Origin: a virus | Strand: one strand, 5' to 3' | IMG/VR virus record: IMGVR_UViG_3300031718_000141 | Span: 1-43,828 of that record | DNA length: 43,828 bases | Shown here: in pieces, positions 3,835 to 42,617 of the stretch | Layout: every line of letters starts with the position of its first letter | Numbering within the stretch: position 1 is the stretch's first letter | Translations under genes and position numbers: made by a program | The notes under the pieces: generated by a model | What the model saw: the letters and a program-made list of their open reading frames with translations, nothing else | What the model was told of the DNA's origin: nothing | Databases searched by the model: none

Positions 3835-4073
3835 TTGGCCCTCAATTCGCCCTCAAACAAGACGCCACGCTTGAACGTATCCACGAAATAGTGCACCGGC
3901 AGGTTGCCGTAGGCCGGGAATGCCGATGTGACTAGGCCTGAGCCTCTCGTTATAGCCCCGTTGCGCAAGGCCACTCGCCGAAACTTCACCTTGTCGCCAG
4001 TCTTGAACTTCGGCTTTGCTTTCTTCCCTGGATAGGAAGCCTTCAGGTATTTATCCACCTCGTCTCGCCGCAT
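3831..4073 (-). CDS. hypothetical basic protein, 80 aa
   Basis: ORF track. GGAAAGGAG SD upstream of ATG 4073. Confidence 0.6.
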   Translation of the reverse strand: MRRDEVDKYLKASYPGKKAKPKFKTGDKVKFRRVALRNGAITRGSGLVTSAFPAYGNLPVHYFVDTFKRGVLFEGELRAK

Positions 4074-35228: not shown

Positions 35229-37246
35229 GACGACTATTTTTGTTTTTACTTTTGATTATGGCATGGCCGCATTCATCGCGCGCGCAAGGTGTCGTTATTG
35301 GAACATCCTGCCCAGCCGCAGGTCAGAACGCTATCTCGACGCAGGGCGTTCCTGTTGTTTGCACCGGCAGCCCGCTTGTCTGGACGAATCCCAATGGCTC
35401 CTCCTCCGGCTCCGGCAATGGGGTAGGGTCTGGAGCAGCGCCCATCATGGCTTACTATCTGTCGAACTCCTGCCCGATAGCGAACACCGGCTCCTGCTAT
35501 TTCACCTATGCCGATACGCTCATGGACAACACCTGTTCATGGACTTCTTCGACAGCTCAAGCGGTATGCTCGGACGGTCCTTTCAAATCGACGGACTGTG
35601 TAGGCGGAACCGGCTGCACCGGAACAGGAACAAGCAAGTCCCTGGCAGGATGGTCTAGTTGCCAAGCCGACCAAGTGGGCCTTCTCAGCACCTTCACCAA
35701 CGGCGCTATCAGCAACACCGCCAATGTAACCATCTCTTCATTTACAAGCTCTACGACGGTAGGACTATCCGCGACTCCGGCTAACGCGGTTGCTTCGGCG
35801 GGGTGTGTCTTCTTTGGGCACTTGGACGATACCGGAGCTGCTGCTTTCGATGCGGCTATCGCAGCCAGTACCCAATGCCCCAAGGGGATGCTAGCTGCCG
35901 CTTATTATCAGTACCAGAATCCCCATCACTACGCACAGCCAAACTCATGCTCCATCACTGAGCCGCTTGTCAACTTCGCCGGTCCCGGCTATGGCAATAC
36001 AACCCTTCCCGCCGGTCTCGAACTTGAAGGACGTGGCACCGGGCCTACCGTCGTCTTTCTAAACCCTTCTTTCCCGAATGGCGATGCCTGCACTAGAAAA
36101 GCCACCAGTTCCCAAACGACTGGCGGATGCTTCGCCATTCCCCTGCTTGGCAAGTGGGTTGACTTGCGTCTAAGCGGCGGCGGCAATTTCATCGCTTCAA
36201 ATATGTCGGGCAAGAACCTCATTACCATGGCCGTCGGCACGCTGATGAATTTCACCTGCACGAACTTCGGCGCAGGGCAGTCGAGCATGGCCGGAATCAA
36301 CATGGGGCAGTTCTCGCAACTGTATCAGGTGAACAATTCCGGTTGTGGCGGCTTGGGTATTGTTTCAGAAACAGGCTCTCTCAATAACGTCCTTTTCCGC
36401 ACGGTGGTGGAGAACTCCGGGACAAATGCGCTGCTTATCAATTCCGGCTCTCAGGTTTTCTGTTACTGGTGCGACTTCGCAGGACCAATCACTTCAACGG
36501 GCCTCGACATCATCAGCAACAACGGTGGCTCGCTTTCCGGTTTTGGAATGCAGGCGAAGATTGCCAACGCCACAAGCACTACGACTTCCGGCACAATTGT
36601 CTACCACGCTACGGCAACCGGAGCTAAGCTGTATGCCGACAACTCTTCTTTCATCGCCAATTACGGTTCAAATACAAACAATGGGGCGGTGTGGTGCGCC
36701 TTCACTCCATGTGTCGTATCGCTCGTCAATGGCAGTCAGTTGCTTGGCGGCTCAACCAGCTTTTCTTATGCCGATACGGCTGGCGGCACGCTCTACATCG
36801 ACCCCAGCACGCTGTTCAATCTACCGTTCTCGAACGGGAATATCAGTGGAACGATTGCGGCTGATGGTCACTCTTTCGGAGCGGGCTGTACTGGGACGGC
36901 GACAGCCTCTTCGACGCTCGGGCTTTACAACCCATTTGCCAATCCCACGACAACGGCTTCGGCTTGCTCCTCTACGACGATTGGCACAGGCTTTCCTATG
37001 CAGCGAGCGGCCACTATCTACGGGCTGCAATGCAAGTCCACCGCGACAACGGTTTCCGTAGCCTGCAAAATCGTTGTGAACGGAACACCGAACGCGACAG
37101 AAACTTGCACCATGACGGCGACGACGACTTGCAACGACTTTACGCATTCCATTTTAGTCAACAAGAACGACTTAATCACACCGGAGATAGTTACCGGCGC
37201 GGCGGAAACTGGCGCGAATATCACGCTCAGCTTTTTCTGGCAGTAG
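35225..37246 (+). CDS. Cys-rich beta-helix-like protein with a signal peptide, 673 aa
   Basis: ORF 35129..37246 trimmed to ATG 35225 (ATGA overlap). MRRLFLFLLLIMAWPHSSRAQG. TAG stop in TAGGAGAG. Confidence 0.65.
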   Translation: MRRLFLFLLLIMAWPHSSRAQGVVIGTSCPAAGQNAISTQGVPVVCTGSPLVWTNPNGSSSGSGNGVGSGAAPIMAYYLSNSCPIANTGSCYFTYADTLMDNTCSWTSSTAQAVCSDGPFKSTDCVGGTGCTGTGTSKSLAGWSSCQADQVGLLSTFTNGAISNTANVTISSFTSSTTVGLSATPANAVASAGCVFFGHLDDTGAAAFDAAIAASTQCPKGMLAAAYYQYQNPHHYAQPNSCSITEPLVNFAGPGYGNTTLPAGLELEGRGTGPTVVFLNPSFPNGDACTRKATSSQTTGGCFAIPLLGKWVDLRLSGGGNFIASNMSGKNLITMAVGTLMNFTCTNFGAGQSSMAGINMGQFSQLYQVNNSGCGGLGIVSETGSLNNVLFRTVVENSGTNALLINSGSQVFCYWCDFAGPITSTGLDIISNNGGSLSGFGMQAKIANATSTTTSGTIVYHATATGAKLYADNSSFIANYGSNTNNGAVWCAFTPCVVSLVNGSQLLGGSTSFSYADTAGGTLYIDPSTLFNLPFSNGNISGTIAADGHSFGAGCTGTATASSTLGLYNPFANPTTTASACSSTTIGTGFPMQRAATIYGLQCKSTATTVSVACKIVVNGTPNATETCTMTATTTCNDFTHSILVNKNDLITPEIVTGAAETGANITLSFFWQ

Positions 37247-37255
37247 GAGAGATGC

Positions 37256-37489
37256 ATGAAGAAAGCATTCGCAGCACTCGCTGTCTTGATTACGCTGGTA
37301 GGCTATAGCGCCTGGAATTGCCGCGTGCGCATCCCTTTGTCCAACATTTATGTGTGGACGATGTTCAAGCCCAAACCTCGGCTGTGGGGCAATGCTGTGG
37401 AGTTCGACCATCACGGCTGGCAGGAGATTTGCCTGGCTGAAAACGGCAAAGCAAAGTGCGTCCCGCTTGTAAAGGCGTCGCCGCAATGA
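37256..37489 (+). CDS. small secreted/membrane protein, 77 aa
   Basis: AGGAGA SD. N-terminus MKKAFAALAVLITLVGYSAWNC. Confidence 0.5.
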   Translation: MKKAFAALAVLITLVGYSAWNCRVRIPLSNIYVWTMFKPKPRLWGNAVEFDHHGWQEICLAENGKAKCVPLVKASPQ

Positions 37490-39873: not shown

Positions 39874-40145
39874 GTCCCTGGTTCACAGTCATTTTCGCCA
39901 TGCTGGGCGTGCTGGGCAGTGCGACCATCAACCTGCTCATCGTGGGCTATTACATTGGGAAGTATCAGGGCGATTTGCGTGAGTGCCAGAAAGCCCTTGG
40001 AGAGATGAAAGAAGAGAACCGGGAGCGCGAGAAGGAATTGCGCGAGGACCAGCGCGATGATAGAGAGATGCTGTCCAAGATTCGTGAGCGGTTGAAAGGC
40101 ATAGAATCAAAAATCAACGGTACGGCGTGGAAAAGGGAGGCATAA
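39870..40145 (+). CDS. N-terminal TM plus coiled-coil protein, 91 aa (GTG start)
   Basis: GTGA overlap. WFTVIFAMLGVLGSATINLLIVGYYI followed by a charged helix. Confidence 0.55.
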   Translation: MSPWFTVIFAMLGVLGSATINLLIVGYYIGKYQGDLRECQKALGEMKEENREREKELREDQRDDREMLSKIRERLKGIESKINGTAWKREA

Positions 40146-40146
40146 A

Positions 40147-40362
40147 ATGGGCATCGGCCCGAGTCCGGGAACTACTTACAAGACACGTTGCACTGCAAAA
40201 TCGAGCCACACGGCGAGCTTCAACGGTGATATAAGCATCGCTATCTCTGGCACGAAAGAGCAGATTGAGTACTATGAGTTTGGCCGCACTTACATCTGGA
40301 ACGTTATGCCTGCTGACGGCGACAAGCCTGATGGCGGGGATACTCAAGCATCCACCAGCTAA
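40147..40362 (+). CDS. hypothetical protein, 71 aa
   Basis: GGGAGG SD 7 nt upstream of the ATG. Its 3' end overlaps the next ORF. Confidence 0.45.
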   Translation: MGIGPSPGTTYKTRCTAKSSHTASFNGDISIAISGTKEQIEYYEFGRTYIWNVMPADGDKPDGGDTQASTS

Positions 40363-40891
40363 TCTGGGCTGGTATCTCTGGGCGGAGCTTGTTTCTATCC
40401 CGTTCTTCCTGTGCTCGGCGTGGGCTTTCGGGGTCTACAGCGTGGCTTACGCGGTTGTCTATTGCCTGCTGACGGCGCTCATCTTCCTGACCATTGCCCG
40501 GCTGGCGTGGGATTGCCTTGAGTCACGAAGGTATCGTTTCAGGGCTTTAGGCGTGGCGCTGACTTTTTCCATCGTCCTGACCAGAATCGCGTTTATAGGC
40601 ATTTCCAAGCCCTTCTCCGGCTACTTGGTGATTTCACTGGTCGAGGGGCTTATTCTCGCGTGGGCGGGCATCCTAGCCGTGTTTACCGCCCCTTATACGC
40701 GACGGCCCGACCTGACTTTCCCACTAGGAGCTTTGTGGCTGGGGCAGGCGTGCTACCGGCTGGGATGGGCCTTGAACTTCAGCGTCTGGCAGGAGATTAA
40801 TTGGGTGATACCGCCGATGCTCGGACTCGCGTGTTATTCATTTCTAGCGTGGCGGCTGGGCCAAAGAGCCGCTGTCGAGCATCTAAGCTAG
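40274..40891 (+). CDS. polytopic membrane protein (about 6 TM), about 205 aa (start uncertain: 40265 TTG, 40274 ATG or 40331 ATG)
   Basis: ORF track. Last gene of the plus-strand block. TAG stop. Confidence 0.6.
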   Translation: MSLAALTSGTLCLLTATSLMAGILKHPPANLGWYLWAELVSIPFFLCSAWAFGVYSVAYAVVYCLLTALIFLTIARLAWDCLESRRYRFRALGVALTFSIVLTRIAFIGISKPFSGYLVISLVEGLILAWAGILAVFTAPYTRRPDLTFPLGALWLGQACYRLGWALNFSVWQEINWVIPPMLGLACYSFLAWRLGQRAAVEHLS

Positions 40892-40939
40892 AAAATTGGC
40901 GCGCCCGGTGGTACTTAAACCCGCACAGCGCTAGCAGCC

Positions 40940-40954
40940 GGGCGCATGGCGCCC
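40940..40954. terminator. GC hairpin GGGCGC-atg-GCGCCC between the convergent blocks; possible terminator (weak T tract)
   Basis: Perfect 6-bp stem read by eye. Lies between the two copies of ATTGGCGCGCC. Confidence 0.3.
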
Positions 40955-40963
40955 CGTTCTCAA

Positions 40964-41380
40964 TTAAGAGACTGATTGCTCAGCCGGGGCATTGGCGCGC
41001 CAAGAGGGAGTCGAACCCTCAACCTGCCCAGTTAGAGTGGGCCGCTCTGCCAGTTGAGCTACAGGCGCGTAAACTCGGTAATGCTTCAGTACTTCTCTCT
41101 GCTCGCCGCGAATCGGAGCCGTCGCAATCGCTGTAAATCCCAAGTCAAAATCAGGCTCCGTCCATTCGTAATGAGGGATGCCGTTGTCCCTCAGTTTCTT
41201 GGCGGTCTTGAGCAGTGAGCGCACGTTGGGCAAGCCAATCAGGACGATGTTCGGGCAGCCCGTCTCATGCCGAATCGAGACAAGCTGGTAGATGGCGTGA
41301 TTGGATTGGACGATTTGTTGCGCGAAAGTAATATCGGTGCGGACGAAAACGTAAACGTAGGAATCAGGAATCTATGACAT
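40964..41380 (-). CDS. PTH2-like (peptidyl-tRNA hydrolase 2 fold) protein. ATG-TCA-TAG opening with an in-frame amber at codon 3; the frame has no stop before the tRNA and only closes at TAA 40966-40964.
   Basis: Hand-translated. Domain codons 41371..41069 read IPDSYVYVFVRTDITFAQQIVQSNHA...PNIVLIGLPNVRSLLKTAKKLRDNGIP...FTAIATAP...VLKHYRVY. The ORF track sees only the TTG-started 3' part (40964..41233). Confidence 0.6.
40993..41068 (-). tRNA. tRNA with anticodon CUA (amber suppressor), 76 nt, CCA encoded
   Basis: Hand fold of GCGCCTG-TA-GCTC-AACTGGCA-GAGC-G-GCCCA-CTCTAAC-TGGGC-AGGTT-GAGGG-TTCGACT-CCCTC-TTGGCGC-G-CCA. All stems are Watson-Crick except U6.U67 and G7.U66. U8, A14, G18G19, A21, U33, A37 and the T-loop are conserved. 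The anticodon is at 41035-41033. Confidence 0.85.
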
Positions 41381-41386
41381 GTGCGC

Positions 41387-41415
41387 ATTCTAGAAAATCC
41401 CTCAAACACTGTCAA
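41387..41415 (-). promoter_or_regulatory. near-consensus sigma70-like promoter TTGACA - 17 nt - TAGAAT, then 6 nt to the ATG (leaderless)
   Basis: Minus strand: TTGACA 41415-41410, TAGAAT 41392-41387, ATG 41380-41378. Confidence 0.6.
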
Positions 41416-41425
41416 GCAAAATCCG

Positions 41426-41842
41426 CTAACCTTCCTCGACCGCTTGCTGCACGTTGTCGCCGTTATTGCTTGGCGGGTAGGTCTTGCCATGGCGCAACTG
41501 GAAGTGGAAGTGCTCGTTGTCCGTGCCCGCGTTCTCCAGCCAGCCGAAAAAGTAGTCCGTCACATAGCCGCCAGAGTTGACTATCGGCGTTCCAAAGTGA
41601 GCTAAAACCTTGTCCACGAAAACGGATTTAGTTACCTCGTCCATGTCATGCGAGCGCACGTCGTAGGCGCATCCGGCGTGGTGCGGGTCGAGGTTCCCGC
41701 TGTGCATCCCGTCCGTGCCCGAGGTGATTACTAGGTCGCGTCCCATCTCCTGTCCCGTCTCCCACAGAGCCGCCAGCAAAGCAAATCCTGAAGGAGCGAT
41801 GATTGAGAATTGCACACCCGGCGCTACCGTTATGACGTTCAT
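41426..41842 (-). CDS. endolysin, zinc peptidase M15 (VanY/L-Ala-D-Glu peptidase-like), 138 aa
   Basis: ITSGTDGMHSGNLDPHHAGCAYDV...EHFHFQL gives the H-x-D and H-x-H metal ligands. ATGA overlap with the holin. TAG stop. Confidence 0.65.
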   Translation of the reverse strand: MNVITVAPGVQFSIIAPSGFALLAALWETGQEMGRDLVITSGTDGMHSGNLDPHHAGCAYDVRSHDMDEVTKSVFVDKVLAHFGTPIVNSGGYVTDYFFGWLENAGTDNEHFHFQLRHGKTYPPSNNGDNVQQAVEEG

Positions 41843-42042
41843 ATACTCGCTTTCTTTTCAATCCGCCTGACGTACCAGCGTAGAGCGTCGTTCACCATGC
41901 ACAAGCCCGCGTGGACGCCCAGCAGCACTATGAGAATTGTAGCGCCCCATTTACAAACGGAGTCGTTCTCAGAGTGAAGCAGAAGGCAAAGCACGAGCGT
42001 GAATGTCCACCAAGGCACGTTTTTGTCATATCGGCTGTCCAT
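41839..42042 (-). CDS. holin (two TM helices, basic C-terminus), 67 aa
   Basis: WWTFTLVLCLLLH and GATILIVLLGVHAGLCMV, then RWYVRRIEKK. Sits immediately upstream of the endolysin. Confidence 0.6.
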   Translation of the reverse strand: MDSRYDKNVPWWTFTLVLCLLLHSENDSVCKWGATILIVLLGVHAGLCMVNDALRWYVRRIEKKASI

Positions 42043-42075
42043 TGTGGGTTCCTTTCGGAGGCGTGGGAACCGGGT

Positions 42076-42094
42076 AGCGCCAAGCTACAGGCGG
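42076..42094 (-). ncRNA. tRNA-derived minihelix-like sequence: positions 2-12 of the CUA tRNA fused to its 3' acceptor strand
   Basis: The minus strand reads CGCCTGTAGCT-TGGCGC. The tRNA has CGCCTGTAGCT at positions 2-12 and TTGGCGC at positions 66-72. Confidence 0.4.
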
Positions 42095-42179
42095 CTCCCA
42101 TGCCCGATTCGCGTTGCGTTTTTAGCTCAGACTTACACGCGCTTCCTTCTCTGCTGGCATCCGAACACCAGCAAGGCCG

Positions 42180-42617
42180 CTATGAAAGCTGGTTGATATT
42201 GCCGCCGGTGGCCGGTGTCGTCAGCAAGGGCACTGTGGCCGTCGCTGTGACTGCCGTGCCGTCCGAGGCTGTTCCTGCCACCGTCAAGGTGTAGCTCGTG
42301 AGCGTGTCCGCCACCGCATCCACCGCCGTCACCGTGTTCCCCGTGGGGTCCGATGCCAGAGGAGTCAGCGTCAGGCCGGGGTCACTCGAACTCCAGTTGA
42401 CCGCCGCGCCCGGTGTCATGCCGCCGTTCCACACCACCTGAAATACGCTCGTTCCGCCAATCTTCGTGCCGGTAATCGCCATCTGTTTTTCTCCTTGAAA
42501 GATTTTGCCGCCCGTTGCTGGCCTGCGAAGAAGAGAATGCGCCAAGGACACCAGTTCTTCAAGAGCATTTGCGATGCGTCCCAGGTCGAAATCGGCTAGT
42601 TTGTCCCATTCGCTCAT
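42180..42617 (-). CDS. Ig-like (Big_2-like) domain protein, 145 aa, with a strong internal start at 42482 (100-aa form)
   Basis: ORF track. AAGGAG lies 8 nt before the internal ATG. The Thr/Ala/Val-rich beta-sandwich-like C-terminal part is the Ig-like region. TAG stop. Confidence 0.6.
   Translation of the reverse strand: MSEWDKLADFDLGRIANALEELVSLAHSLLRRPATGGKIFQGEKQMAITGTKIGGTSVFQVVWNGGMTPGAAVNWSSSDPGLTLTPLASDPTGNTVTAVDAVADTLTSYTLTVAGTASDGTAVTATATVPLLTTPATGGNINQLS

What the first reader, a model, noticed from the sequence alone, without database searches (positions are those of the whole stretch)
41372..41380. AUG-UCA-UAG is formally a two-codon minigene, like lambda bar, placed in front of a peptidyl-tRNA hydrolase homolog
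Without suppression, the 5'-terminal ORF is just fMet-Ser-stop.

Established knowledge: two-codon minigenes such as the lambda bar regions (AUG AUA stop) cause peptidyl-tRNA drop-off and are toxic when Pth activity is limiting.

Here a minigene of the same format is fused in frame to a PTH2-like domain and followed by the tRNA that reads its stop. Inference: depending on suppressor level, the same transcript could act either as a peptidyl-tRNA generator (no suppression) or as mRNA for a hydrolase-like protein (suppression).

Alternative: re-initiation at the AUU (41371-41369) that directly follows the UAG.
Basis: inference. Interest (0 to 1): 0.7.

Follow-up and report, generated by a model that had tools for sequence, protein, structure and literature searches.

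The report
Amber-gated PTH2-like gene beside suppressor tRNA
A phage gene for a peptidyl-tRNA-hydrolase-like protein starts with Met-Ser-STOP(UAG) and can apparently be translated only when the amber-suppressor tRNA encoded just downstream reads that stop; the same device recurs in dozens of soil phages and in cultured jumbo phages, giving those puzzling suppressor tRNAs their first identified target.

Summary
On the minus strand a near-consensus sigma-70 promoter places the transcript start at ATG-TCA-TAG (41380-41372). This is in frame with a 101-codon PTH2-fold ORF that has no start codon of its own, and a tRNA(CUA) follows directly.

It is not chance. In 38 of 40 non-redundant relatives the domain is directly preceded by TAG (never TGA). 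Before the TAG there is an ATG plus 1-4 codons, and after it an A. A tRNA(CUA) lies within about 700 nt in at least 35 of them. Ungated relatives have normal starts and carry tRNA-Lys or tRNA-Arg instead. Eleven cultured jumbo phages (CBB, GAP32, BF, ME3, XacN1, RsoM2USA, Arash and others) have the same gate, usually unannotated. Published papers on several of them noted amber suppressors without known targets.

The window uses the standard genetic code. The best explanation is translation gated by the co-encoded suppressor. The resemblance to lambda bar is only formal, and restart at the AUU is disfavoured because relatives have AAU, AAC, ACC, GUA or AUA at that position. A conserved, covarying tRNA-like RNA without a D-arm also belongs to the cassette.

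The enzyme's substrate, the amino acid inserted and the biological purpose remain unknown.

The parts
41387..41415 (-). Sigma-70-type promoter: -35 TTGACA (41415-41410), 17-nt spacer, -10 TAGAAT (41392-41387). It predicts a transcript that starts at or next to the A of the ATG (leaderless).
   Evidence: 11 of 12 matches; the only hit in 2.5 kb. The same layout, with the -10 ending 4-9 nt before the ATG, is seen in about 26 of 37 related soil-phage loci.
41372..41380 (-). The gate: ATG TCA TAG. This is a two-codon mini-ORF whose amber stop is in frame with the PTH2-fold ORF. The next base (41371) is A.
   Evidence: ATG plus 1-4 codons plus TAG is conserved in 38 of 40 clusters and in 11 cultured jumbo phages. 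The +4 base is A in 46 of 48 gates, against 2 of 15 genuine TAG stops in the window.
41069..41371 (-). PTH2-fold domain, 101 codons (IPDSYVYVFVRTD...HYRVY). It has no canonical start codon before codon 46 and no stop codon before the tRNA.
   Evidence: AlphaFold pLDDT 93.7. Foldseek hits to Pth2 and Bit1. Relatives in XacN1 and Xoo-sp13 pass Pfam's PTH2 threshold. The family has 861 representatives at E<=1e-10.
40993..41068 (-). tRNA with anticodon CUA, an amber suppressor. It is an elongator type (G1:C72, G73, 5-nt variable loop, encoded CCA) and starts at the first base after codon 101 of the ORF.
   Evidence: A tRNA(CUA) lies downstream of the gated ORF in at least 35 related clusters.
40964..41068 (-). 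Formal 3' extension of the ORF, 34 codons read through the tRNA gene to the TAA at 40966-40964. It is probably not a functional peptide.
   Evidence: The predicted homologs have 'translated-tRNA' tails (AQLAE..GS.PS). ORF ends relative to the tRNAs are tabulated.
40947..40990 (-). tRNA-like element, copy 1: a 6-bp outer stem, hairpin A (GCAA loop), hairpin B (UUAAUU loop) and a G-CCA tail.
   Evidence: MFE -19.8 to -20.0 kcal/mol depending on the exact stretch folded, z = -3.1. Model R1 gives 9.4 bits, E=0.058, in a local search with the filters off. It has the same position and architecture as the family in related loci.
40897..40945 (-). tRNA-like element, copy 2: an 8-bp outer stem, a truncated hairpin A containing GCUAGC, hairpin B GGGUUUAAGUACC and a G-CCA tail followed by AUUUU.
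   Evidence: Model R1 gives 20.8 bits, E=8e-5. It is similar in sequence to the L013, L031 and L038 elements.

Best explanation
This is a translational gate that depends on a suppressor tRNA. A strong promoter makes one transcript that begins at the AUG. The transcript carries, in order, the mini-ORF AUG-UCA-UAG, a PTH2-fold ORF in the same frame, an amber-suppressor tRNA(CUA) and one or two small tRNA-like RNAs. A ribosome that starts on the 5' AUG reaches the UAG at codon 3. If release factor 1 wins, only fMet-Ser is made. If the phage's charged tRNA(CUA) wins, translation continues into the hydrolase-like protein, which has no other way to be initiated. The amount of protein therefore tracks the activity of the co-encoded suppressor and is kept low relative to the tRNA. 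The UAG sits in a dispensable N-terminal tail right next to the start, so any inserted amino acid is tolerated and a failed attempt costs only a dipeptide. Shown here: the anatomy, its conservation, the exclusive use of UAG followed by A, the covariation with tRNA(CUA), the PTH2 fold and the standard genetic code of the phage. Inferred: that the tRNA is charged and actually reads this UAG, and the transcript start. Speculative: the purpose. My preferred reading is that the enzyme deals with acylated or peptidyl tRNAs produced as a consequence of suppression, or acts on the suppressor itself, so that the gate meters it to suppressor activity.
For: (1) The anatomy in the window. (2) 38 of 40 non-redundant relatives have TAG directly before the domain, never TGA. 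TAA occurs only in an ungated relative and in one weak hit. 24 of the 38 have no canonical start between the TAG and strand beta1. (3) A tRNA(CUA), often two, lies within about 700 nt downstream in at least 35 gated clusters. The four ungated relatives (L016, L083-L085) have ordinary ATG or GTG starts and carry tRNA-Lys(UUU) or tRNA-Arg(UCU) at the same spot. Fisher p = 7e-4. (4) The +4 base is A in 46 of 48 gates, against 2 of 15 genuine TAG stops in the window. From established knowledge (Bossi 1983; Miller and Albertini 1983), a 3' A is the classical context for efficient amber suppression in E. coli. (5) The gate works with either kind of start: leaderless in about 26 of 37 soil loci and SD-led in 6. 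It is SD-led in cultured jumbo phages: CBB MAQ*N, GAP32 MAQ*N, BF MTH*N, fHe-Yen9-04 MSH*I, XbC2 MAH*N, RsoM2USA ML*I, ME3 MT*I, Arash ML*N, XacN1 MK*T, RAS14 MK*T, Xoo-sp13 MKK*N. (6) These phages encode tRNA(CUA). In ME3 it is 420 nt upstream. In pEa_SNUABM_12 it is 3.3 kb downstream (PMC7760394). XacN1 has two per terminal repeat and 'no target identified' (PMC5852040). RsoM2USA has one (PMC8504454). (7) In 48 kb of pEa_SNUABM_12 this is the only ATG + 1-4 codons + stop + long-ORF pattern with any stop codon, and its 108 codons contain no ATG, GTG or TTG. (8) The window and neighbouring loci use the standard code: coding density is 0.90, and TAG ends 15 of 64 and 59 of 208 predicted genes. 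The gate is therefore a single-gene device, not genome-wide recoding. (9) The protein is real: pLDDT 93.7, PTH2 fold, 861 family representatives.
Against: There is no experimental evidence of any kind: no transcript start, no proteomics, no charging data. The amino-acid identity of the tRNA could not be assigned. Its nearest matches are tRNA-Asn, tRNA-Arg and tRNA-Thr at 75-80%, which is not significant. The related loci share ancestry, so the p-values overstate independence. In 5 of 38 soil clusters an ATG or GTG directly follows the TAG and could serve as a conventional start. In the soil subgroup the codon after TAG is always ATN or GTN, which is also what a restart model predicts. A module in which the suppressor's only visible client is its own neighbour looks circular, so the real purpose is missing. 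An active suppressor would also read through the 23% of this phage's genes that end in TAG. The catalytic Lys18 of Sulfolobus Pth2 falls in a deletion, so hydrolase activity is not assured. RaK2's homolog has a normal start, and I did not check whether RaK2 has a tRNA(CUA).
Confidence: 0.78

Rival explanations
1. Dual-use bar-like minigene. When suppression is low, the AUG-UCA-UAG mini-ORF is selected to produce fMet-Ser-tRNA(Ser) by drop-off. This sequesters a tRNA and stresses host Pth. When suppression is high, the same mRNA makes a hydrolase that relieves the stress.
For: The format is right in 32-34 of 38 soil clusters: ATG plus one sense codon plus stop. Codon 2 is usually a minor NCA codon; ACA makes up 18% of Thr codons and TCA 10% of Ser codons in this phage. 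Early-elongation drop-off and minigene toxicity under limiting Pth are established (PMC2490762; PMC10192219, listed). The product downstream has the fold of a peptidyl-tRNA hydrolase. The TAG always lies within 1-4 sense codons of the AUG, even though the dispensable tail after it can be 20 residues long.
Against: The length of the mini-ORF and its last sense codon are not conserved. There are 3-5-codon versions ending in CGC, CGG, CTG, ACA, CAC, CAA and AAG. A tRNA-specific sequestration device would be expected to keep both fixed. The conserved features are instead UAG plus A and the co-encoded suppressor. Most copies are leaderless, which usually means modest initiation rates, whereas bar toxicity needs strong expression. 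The toxicity itself cannot be assessed in silico.
Confidence: 0.1
2. Termination followed by re-initiation, or direct non-canonical initiation, at the codon after the UAG (AUU in the window). The mini-ORF only recruits the ribosome, and the tRNA(CUA) serves other genes.
For: In the soil subgroup the codon after TAG is ATT (22), ATC (9), ATG (4), GTG (1), GTA (1) or ATA (1). Most of these are canonical or near-cognate start codons. The conservation is tied to the TAG and not to the domain, because the tail length varies.
Against: GTA and ATA in soil loci, and AAT, AAC and ACC in eight cultured phages, cannot act as start codons. A restart would work with any stop codon, yet TGA is never used and TAA never occurs in a gated locus. 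Ungated relatives switch both to a normal start and to a sense tRNA at the same time. From established knowledge, IF3 discriminates against AUU and AUC.
Confidence: 0.05
3. Leaky stop read by host tRNAs. The UAG-A at codon 3 is read through at a low basal level by near-cognate host tRNAs and acts simply as an attenuator. The adjacent tRNA(CUA) is linked for another reason.
For: An early UAG followed by A is a leaky context. Attenuation would make sense for a catalytic protein placed behind a very strong tRNA promoter.
Against: It explains neither the exclusive choice of UAG over the leakier UGA, nor the loss of the gate exactly where the neighbouring tRNA is Lys or Arg instead of CUA.
Confidence: 0.05
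4. Pseudogene or sequencing error. The TAG is a nonsense mutation in a decaying gene.
For: Gene callers and GenBank annotators treat it this way: the gene is missing or truncated in the BF, fHe-Yen9-04, pEa_SNUABM, RsoM2USA, CBB and Arash records.
Against: The stop is at the same place in 38 diverged clusters and 11 cultured phages, while the protein sequence stays under clear constraint: there are invariant residues, a confident fold and no other in-frame stops.
Confidence: 0.01

Closest known systems
Lambda bar minigenes (AUG AUA stop), toxic in Pth-deficient (rap) E. coli
   Same: The format of start codon, one sense codon and stop. A phage origin. A conceptual link to peptidyl-tRNA hydrolase. 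The sense codon is usually a minor one.
   Different: bar minigenes are stand-alone, led by a Shine-Dalgarno sequence and end in UAA or UGA (from my memory of Ontiveros 1997 and Hernandez-Sanchez 1998; the latter is cited in PMC2490762). Here the stop is always UAG followed by A. It is in frame with an ORF that has no start of its own, it is usually leaderless, its length and codon vary among relatives, and it co-occurs with a tRNA that reads the stop.
Stop-codon recoding in phages (code 15, TAG to Gln) with suppressor tRNAs that regulate late and lysis genes (Borges et al., bioRxiv 10.1101/2021.08.26.457843; Peters et al., PMC9523058)
   Same: A phage-encoded tRNA(CUA) makes the expression of phage genes with an in-frame TAG conditional on the phage's own translation apparatus.
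   Different: Recoded phages have in-frame TAGs in 26-71% of their genes, avoid TAG as a stop codon, and are gut phages of Bacteroidota and Firmicutes. Here the phage is 90% coding under the standard code and TAG ends about a quarter of its genes. The only gated gene found is the PTH2-like one, at codon 3, in the same operon as the tRNA.
prfB (RF2) autoregulation through an early in-frame UGA
   Same: An in-frame stop codon early in the gene acts as a sensor. Competition between termination and a recoding event at that codon sets the output of a gene for a translation factor.
   Different: prfB is rescued by a +1 frameshift and senses its own product. Here the rescue is by a suppressor tRNA, and what is sensed is the co-transcribed tRNA (against RF1), not, as far as is known, the PTH2-like protein itself. 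This comparison rests on established knowledge and was not tested here.
Archaeal/eukaryotic Pth2 (Pfam PF01981; 1XTY, 2ZV3, 1Q7S Bit1) and the PTH2 genes noted in jumbo phages (Iyer et al. 2021, PMC7824862)
   Same: The same alpha/beta fold (TM 0.75-0.79). Shared R-x-D, Q-x-x-H-A and D...G-x-T motifs. A position among phage tRNA genes.
   Different: Sequence identity is 13-18%. The window protein scores below Pfam's threshold. The loop that carries catalytic Lys18 is deleted. It is about 15 residues shorter. Neither the amber gate nor the overlap with a tRNA has been described for PTH2.
Theta (HDV-like) ribozymes next to suppressor tRNAs in gut phages (Kienbeck et al. 2024, PMC10879173)
   Same: A small structured RNA of about 50-60 nt placed directly beside phage suppressor tRNAs.
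   Different: Theta ribozymes are double pseudoknots beside tRNAs that mostly lack an encoded CCA (4.5% have one). The element here is a plain nested fold: an outer stem around two hairpins, ending in its own N-CCA, beside tRNAs that encode CCA. It matches no Rfam family.

Membership tests
Lambda bar-type toxic minigene | An ORF made of AUG, one sense codon and a stop | tested here: met
   ATG TCA TAG at 41380-41372. Two codons in 32-34 of 38 related clusters, 3-5 codons in the others.
Lambda bar-type toxic minigene | A stand-alone ORF with its own Shine-Dalgarno sequence, not continuous with a coding frame | tested here: not met
   There is no SD, and the -10 element ends 6 nt before the ATG. 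The stop is in frame with a conserved 101-codon domain that lacks any start codon.
Lambda bar-type toxic minigene | A specific last sense codon and tRNA that gets sequestered (AUA/tRNA-Ile in bar) | tested here: not met
   The last sense codon varies among relatives: ACA, ACC, ACG, TCA, CCT, CAT, CAC, CAA, TTG, CTG, AAG, CGC, CGG.
Lambda bar-type toxic minigene | Peptidyl-tRNA accumulation and growth arrest when Pth is limiting | not testable with these tools
   This needs expression in pth(ts) cells.
PTH2 peptidyl-tRNA hydrolase (PF01981) | The PTH2 alpha/beta fold | tested here: met
   The AlphaFold model has pLDDT 93.7 and pTM 0.87. The 14 best Foldseek hits against the PDB are all Pth2, Bit1 or PTH2-like proteins, E 8e-6 to 2e-4, TM 0.67-0.79.
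PTH2 peptidyl-tRNA hydrolase (PF01981) | A score above Pfam's gathering threshold (23 bits) | tested here: inconclusive
   The window protein scores 13.6-14.9 bits, which is not met. 10 of 27 family members give weak hits. The homologous domains of XacN1 ORF364 and Xoo-sp13_327 score 25.3 and 29.5 bits, which is met.
PTH2 peptidyl-tRNA hydrolase (PF01981) | The catalytic residues reported for Sulfolobus Pth2 (K18, D86, T90; from memory of Fromant et al. 2005) | tested here: inconclusive
   In the hhalign comparison (E=0.15) K18 falls in a 2-residue deletion. The H25 equivalent is invariant. The D and T equivalents (EPD..G.T) are conserved.
PTH2 peptidyl-tRNA hydrolase (PF01981) | Hydrolysis of the ester bond in N-blocked aminoacyl-tRNA | not testable with these tools
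   This needs an enzyme assay or complementation of pth(ts).
Alternatively coded (code 15) phage | In-frame TAG in a large share of genes, low coding density under code 11, and TAG avoided as a stop | tested here: not met
   Coding density is 0.90 under the standard code and 0.895 with TAG read as sense. TAG ends 15 of 64 genes. The same holds in 20 related loci. There is no second gated gene in the window.
Alternatively coded (code 15) phage | A phage-encoded tRNA(CUA) | tested here: met
Leaderless mRNA | The transcript starts at or within a few nt of the AUG, with no SD | tested here: inconclusive
   The geometry of the promoter fits: the -10 ends 6 nt before the ATG, and there is no SD. The 5' end itself has not been mapped.
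Functional elongator suppressor tRNA | A canonical cloverleaf with a 7-nt anticodon loop, U33, CUA and a purine at 37, and no initiator features | tested here: met
   Rfam tRNA 60.8 bits. The loop is CUCUAAC, position 1:72 is G:C, and the anticodon stem lacks the three G:C pairs of initiator tRNAs. Charging and amino-acid identity cannot be tested here.
Theta / HDV-like ribozyme (for the tRNA-adjacent element) | A nested double-pseudoknot HDV fold placed beside tRNAs that lack CCA | tested here: not met
   Covariation supports a continuous outer stem that encloses two hairpins. No HDV-family hit in Rfam. The feature as described is from PMC10879173.

The most novel reading that the evidence does not exclude
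Amber-suppressor tRNAs carried by standard-code phages are not a step toward recoding. They belong to a self-contained, mobile 'metered suppression' module with three parts: the suppressor tRNA(s); a PTH2-fold esterase whose synthesis is gated by the suppressor itself and which in turn acts on the suppressor's acylated or peptidyl forms (a feedback loop that holds read-through at a set level), or on the peptidyl-tRNAs that read-through generates; and a previously undescribed tRNA-like RNA ending in CCA and lacking a D-arm. This would be a new kind of translational control device, and it is present in cultured phages of Enterobacteria, Xanthomonas, Ralstonia and Acinetobacter.
Probability: 0.25. 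Interest if true: 0.9.

Novelty: new variant of a known kind. Interest (0 to 1): 0.8.

Why it matters
Papers on several cultured jumbo phages report amber-suppressor tRNAs in genomes that use the standard code. They either could not find a target (XacN1, PMC5852040) or only guessed at one (RsoM2USA, PMC8504454). This work identifies a concrete and conserved client. It is a PTH2-fold gene that annotation pipelines miss or truncate, because it begins with a 2-5-codon ORF ending in UAG.

This turns an open question into experiments that can be done with phages already in culture: CBB, GAP32, BF, ME3, Arash, XacN1 and RsoM2USA. It shows that stop-codon gating by a phage tRNA exists as a single-gene device outside recoded genomes. 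It links suppressor tRNAs functionally to peptidyl-tRNA metabolism.

It also offers a compact natural part for synthetic biology: a promoter, an amber gate at codon 3, and a cognate suppressor in about 500 bp. Finally, it flags a systematic annotation error, and it reveals a new covarying tRNA-like RNA.

Tried and rejected
(1) Genome-wide TAG recoding. Rejected: coding density and stop-codon usage fit the standard code in the window and in 20 related loci. The junctions between same-frame ORFs separated by TAG have their own RBS and ATG.

(2) Other amber-gated genes. The pattern scans found only antisense, spurious hits in the window, and nothing else in 48 kb of Erwinia phage pEa_SNUABM_12.

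(3) An initiator-type tRNA(CUA) starting translation at the UAG. Rejected: position 1:72 is G:C, the anticodon stem has no GGG:CCC, and the upstream AUG is conserved.

(4) Quadruplet UAGA decoding. Rejected for the window, because the +1 frame does not encode the domain (read directly).

(5) Assigning the tRNA's amino acid by similarity. Inconclusive: the best matches are tRNA-Asn of Gordonia phages (80.5%), tRNA-Arg(UCU) of Xoo-sp13 (78.6%) and E. coli tRNA-Thr (75%, E=7).

(6) Sequence search of the family profile against PDB sequences. Nothing relevant.

(7) Profile-profile alignment to Pth2. Weak (E=0.15).

(8) The element next to the tRNA as a theta/HDV-like ribozyme, or as any Rfam family. 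Rejected.

(9) Read-through from the upstream gene (41842-41426, TAG stop, same frame) into the cassette. Rejected: a TGA lies 7 codons on, at 41404-41402.

(10) A scan of genome contigs gave only 2 MAG loci, so no host could be assigned.

(11) Eight full-text literature searches found no earlier description of the gate. The library does not cover most subscription journals.
Full report
**1. What is in the window.**
Everything below is on the minus strand. TTGACA (41415-41410) is followed by 17 nt, then TAGAAT (41392-41387), then 6 nt, then ATG TCA TAG ATT (41380-41369). The promoter scan scores this 11 of 12 and finds no other promoter-like site in 40000-42500. With the -10 element ending 6 nt before the ATG and no Shine-Dalgarno sequence, the transcript is predicted to begin at the AUG.

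After the TAG the frame stays open for 135 codons. The first 101 codons (41371-41069) are the conserved domain. The very next base (41068) is the first base of a tRNA with anticodon CUA (41068-40993; ARAGORN; Rfam tRNA 60.8 bits). The formal ORF runs through the tRNA gene to a TAA at 40966-40964. The first canonical start codon after the TAG is 46 codons in. Starting there would remove strand beta1 and helix alpha1.

The window is a phage. It has a large terminase subunit and a major head protein. It is 90% coding under the standard code, and TAG ends 15 of 64 predicted genes.

**2. The protein.**
Pfam gives only a sub-threshold PTH2 hit (13.6-14.9 bits against a cut-off of 23), and PHROGs returns families of unknown function. 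An AlphaFold model built on 27 homologs is confident (pLDDT 93.7, pTM 0.87). All 14 of its significant Foldseek matches in the PDB are archaeal Pth2, human Bit1 or PTH2-like proteins (TM 0.67-0.79).

Homologous domains in Xanthomonas phages XacN1 and Xoo-sp13 pass Pfam's own PTH2 threshold (25.3 and 29.5 bits). A profile-profile alignment to Pth2 is weak (E=0.15). It places the catalytic Lys18 of Sulfolobus Pth2 in a two-residue deletion, while the His, Asp and Thr positions are kept. I therefore call this a PTH2-fold protein whose activity is unproven. The family is large, with 861 representatives of 50%-identity clusters at E<=1e-10.

**3. The gate is conserved.**
Homologs found in the protein database often carry C-terminal tails that are translated tRNA. 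Many are also called from inside the domain. Both are signs that gene callers cannot find the true ends of the gene.

I fetched 61 related loci from viral, genome and metagenome collections and walked upstream in frame from the domain. I then reduced the set to 40 clusters at 90% identity.
- 38 clusters have TAG directly before the domain, and none has TGA.
- The two TAA cases are an ungated relative (L016) and a weak partial hit (L061).
- The mini-ORF is ATG plus one codon in 32 clusters, or 34 if the proximal ATG is counted. That codon is ACA in 20, ACC in 5, ACG in 4, TCA in 2 and CCT in 1.
- The mini-ORF is 4-5 codons long in L001, L004, L014 and L036.
- 24 of the 38 clusters have no canonical start codon between the TAG and strand beta1.
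- About 26 of 37 loci have a TTGACA/-10 pair that ends 4-9 nt before the ATG, which is the leaderless layout. Six have a Shine-Dalgarno sequence aimed at the mini-ORF's ATG.

**4. The suppressor travels with the gate.**
ARAGORN, supplemented by reading the sequence, finds a tRNA(CUA) within about 700 nt downstream in at least 35 gated clusters. Often there are two, with different scaffolds.

The family also has ungated members, the 'MNLDDC.VY.FVRQD' subgroup. L016, L083, L084 and L085 start with an ordinary ATG or GTG; L016 has a clear Shine-Dalgarno sequence. At the same position, overlapping the ORF's 3' end, they carry tRNA-Lys(UUU) or tRNA-Arg(UCU). L086 belongs to the same subgroup but yielded no tRNA call. 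The association between gate and CUA gives Fisher p = 7e-4. This is not corrected for phylogeny.

Neither the window nor 20 related loci show TAG recoding of other genes. No second gated gene was found.

**5. Context of the UAG.**
The base after the gate's UAG is A in 46 of 48 gates and G in the other two. After the window's 15 genuine TAG stops it is A only twice, and A follows 22% of all TAG trinucleotides. From established knowledge, a 3' A is the classical favourable context for amber suppression in E. coli.

In the soil subgroup the following codon is always ATN or GTN. On its own this would also fit a restart model. Cultured relatives have AAT, AAC and ACC, and two soil clusters have GTA and ATA. 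Restart therefore cannot be the general mechanism.

**6. Cultured phages.**
A tblastn search against 50,697 phage records found homologs in 35 jumbo phages. Eleven that I inspected have the gate, always led by a Shine-Dalgarno sequence.

| Phage | Start of the ORF |
|---|---|
| CBB | MAQ*NEK |
| GAP32 | MAQ*NEK |
| XbC2 | MAH*NEK |
| BF | MTH*NDK |
| fHe-Yen9-04 | MSH*IDK |
| RsoM2USA | ML*ISD |
| ME3 | MT*IHE |
| Arash | ML*NKH |
| XacN1 (two-domain form) | MK*TIK |
| RAS14 (two-domain form) | MK*TLN |
| Xoo-sp13 (two-domain form) | MKK*NFN |

RaK2 is the one exception seen, with a normal ATG. In GenBank the gene is absent or truncated in most of these records.

These phages encode tRNA(CUA):
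- ME3 has one 420 nt upstream on the same strand.
- pEa_SNUABM_12 has one 3.3 kb downstream, within the same tRNA region (PMC7760394).
- RsoM2USA has one (PMC8504454).

In 48 kb of pEa_SNUABM_12 this ORF is the only instance of ATG + 1-4 codons + any stop + a long ORF. Its 108 codons contain no ATG, GTG or TTG.

**7. Interpretation.**
The most economical reading is that the PTH2-fold protein is made only when the phage's own amber suppressor reads the UAG at codon 3. Otherwise the product is a dipeptide.

Placing the gate in a dispensable N-terminal tail, right next to the start codon, makes the identity of the inserted residue irrelevant and the cost of failure minimal. Putting it behind a consensus-strength promoter that also drives the tRNA keeps protein output low and proportional to suppressor activity.

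The formal resemblance to lambda bar is real, but the features that define bar are not shared: a stand-alone, SD-led ORF, a fixed sequestered tRNA, and toxicity under limiting Pth (PMC2490762). Peptidyl-tRNA drop-off at the gate is plausible as a by-product, and no more than that can be said.

Why a phage that uses the standard code needs an amber suppressor at all remains unanswered. The purposes I offer are inference: metering an enzyme that clears the acyl- or peptidyl-tRNA consequences of read-through, or negative feedback on the suppressor itself.

**8. Additional finding.**
In the soil-phage cassettes, a 50-57-nt RNA lies directly after the first tRNA (or after the ORF) and before the second tRNA(CUA). 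It has:
- an outer stem of 7-9 bp;
- hairpin A, with a 7-bp stem and a GGCA or UGCUAGC loop;
- hairpin B, with a 3-4-bp stem and a UUGAGU loop;
- an N-CCA tail.

Each copy folds this way on its own. A covariance model built from five copies finds it in at least 17 further places at E<1e-3, always on the cassette strand. All 18 of 18 base pairs show compensatory changes. 95.9% of cells are paired. The covariation score is 0.74, against 0.19 in shuffles and 0.06-0.09 in the slid controls. The caveat is that the alignment was fitted to the model.

The window has two copies, at 40947-40990 and 40897-40945; the second has a truncated hairpin A. No Rfam family matches. The element is not an HDV-like theta ribozyme. 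It is absent from the ungated loci. It looks like a tRNA mimic without a D-arm, and its role is unknown.

**9. Novelty and limits.**
Eight full-text searches found no description of the gate. The library lacks most subscription journals, so an earlier report cannot be excluded.

Nonsense suppression by phage tRNAs, and stop codons used as regulators, are known from recoded gut phages. A conserved single-gene amber gate at codons 3-6 of a PTH2-fold gene in standard-code phages, co-inherited with the suppressor, is a new variant.

Everything rests on sequence. The transcript start, tRNA charging, read-through, enzyme activity and any minigene effect all need experiments, and those are feasible in the cultured phages listed.

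Noticed in passing
window 40897-40990 (-); L001 3381-3432, L009 3387-3438, L004 3384-3435, L007 3386-3436, L013 3381-3434, L005 3387-3440 and 3442-3494, and others: A conserved 50-57-nt tRNA-like RNA without a D-arm: an outer stem, hairpin A (GGCA or UGCUAGC loop), hairpin B (UUGAGU loop) and an N-CCA tail. It lies between the PTH2-like ORF or first tRNA and the second tRNA(CUA). All 18 of 18 pairs covary. It matches no Rfam family and is not a theta ribozyme. It is absent from ungated relatives and from the cultured-phage loci I examined.
   Followed up: yes
window 40964-41068 (-); most related loci: The PTH2-like ORF usually has no stop codon before the tRNA and reads into or through it. If RNase P cuts at the 5' end of the tRNA, the remaining mRNA would have no stop codon, which would make it a substrate for ribosome rescue and tmRNA tagging. 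A few loci (L011, L035, L051) do have a stop before the tRNA.
   Followed up: partly
L004 3441-3545, L021 about 560-680, L006 about 3863-3970, L031 about 915-1013, L008 3536-3635: The second tRNA(CUA) genes carry an insertion of about 25-35 nt straight after the CUA anticodon arm. The insertion looks like a repeated D-stem 3' half plus a second anticodon arm (for example a UAUUUAA loop in L004). ARAGORN misses these genes or gives them the wrong name. They could be an intron, or two tRNAs nested in one acceptor stem.
   Followed up: no
L012 3456-3529 ('tcta'), L005 3505-3602 ('taaa'), L047 about 1139-1222 ('tcaa'), L017 3519-3593 (loop CCUCUAGU): tRNA genes with 8-nt anticodon loops, which are candidate four-base decoders, sit in the same cassettes.
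   Followed up: no
L082 about 1463-1500 (IMGVR_UViG_3300046457_000084): A 10-codon, SD-led mini-ORF ends in TAG, but the PTH2-like domain lies in the +1 frame relative to it (…CAG TAG G TGC ACT…). There is no start codon in the domain's frame. This could be a frameshift, quadruplet reading of UAGG, or an assembly indel.
   Followed up: partly
L016 3389-3463, L083 485-559, L084 1870-1945, L085 1879-1954: Ungated members of the same protein family overlap tRNA-Lys(UUU) or tRNA-Arg(UCU) at their 3' end. The PTH2-fold gene is therefore a general companion of phage tRNA genes. These two isoacceptors are classic targets of anticodon nucleases (from memory).
   Followed up: partly
L064 655-1506 (XacN1 ORF364), L073 152-1003 (RAS14), L070 155-1009 (Xoo-sp13_327): In phages of Xanthomonas and Stenotrophomonas the PTH2 domain is fused behind a domain of about 180 residues that has a weak HD-hydrolase hit (E=0.008). 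The amber gate then sits at the start of the whole two-domain protein.
   Followed up: partly
GenBank records MT939486.1 286858-287195, KY630187.1, LT960551.1, MG752970.1, KU574722.1 (CBB_406), OQ632216.1 (gp84c): The gated gene is unannotated or is called from an internal codon in published phage genomes. This is a systematic annotation gap. pEa_SNUABM_12 also has a separate, conventionally annotated 'putative peptidyl-tRNA hydrolase' at 280995-281426.
   Followed up: partly
window 37244-37260 (+) and 41402-41428 (-): Consequences of read-through for the phage's own TAG-terminated genes. The 705-aa gene ending at 37246 is in frame with the ATG of the next gene (…FFWQ*ERCMKK…), so suppression would fuse the two. 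The gene upstream of the cassette (41842-41426) would gain only 7 residues before a TGA.
   Followed up: no
soil-phage loci, first codon after the gate's TAG: In the soil subgroup the codon after TAG is always ATN or GTN (Ile, Met or Val), even though the distance to the conserved domain varies from 3 to 20 residues. In cultured jumbo phages only the first A is kept. The conservation of the second base (T) is unexplained.
   Followed up: partly
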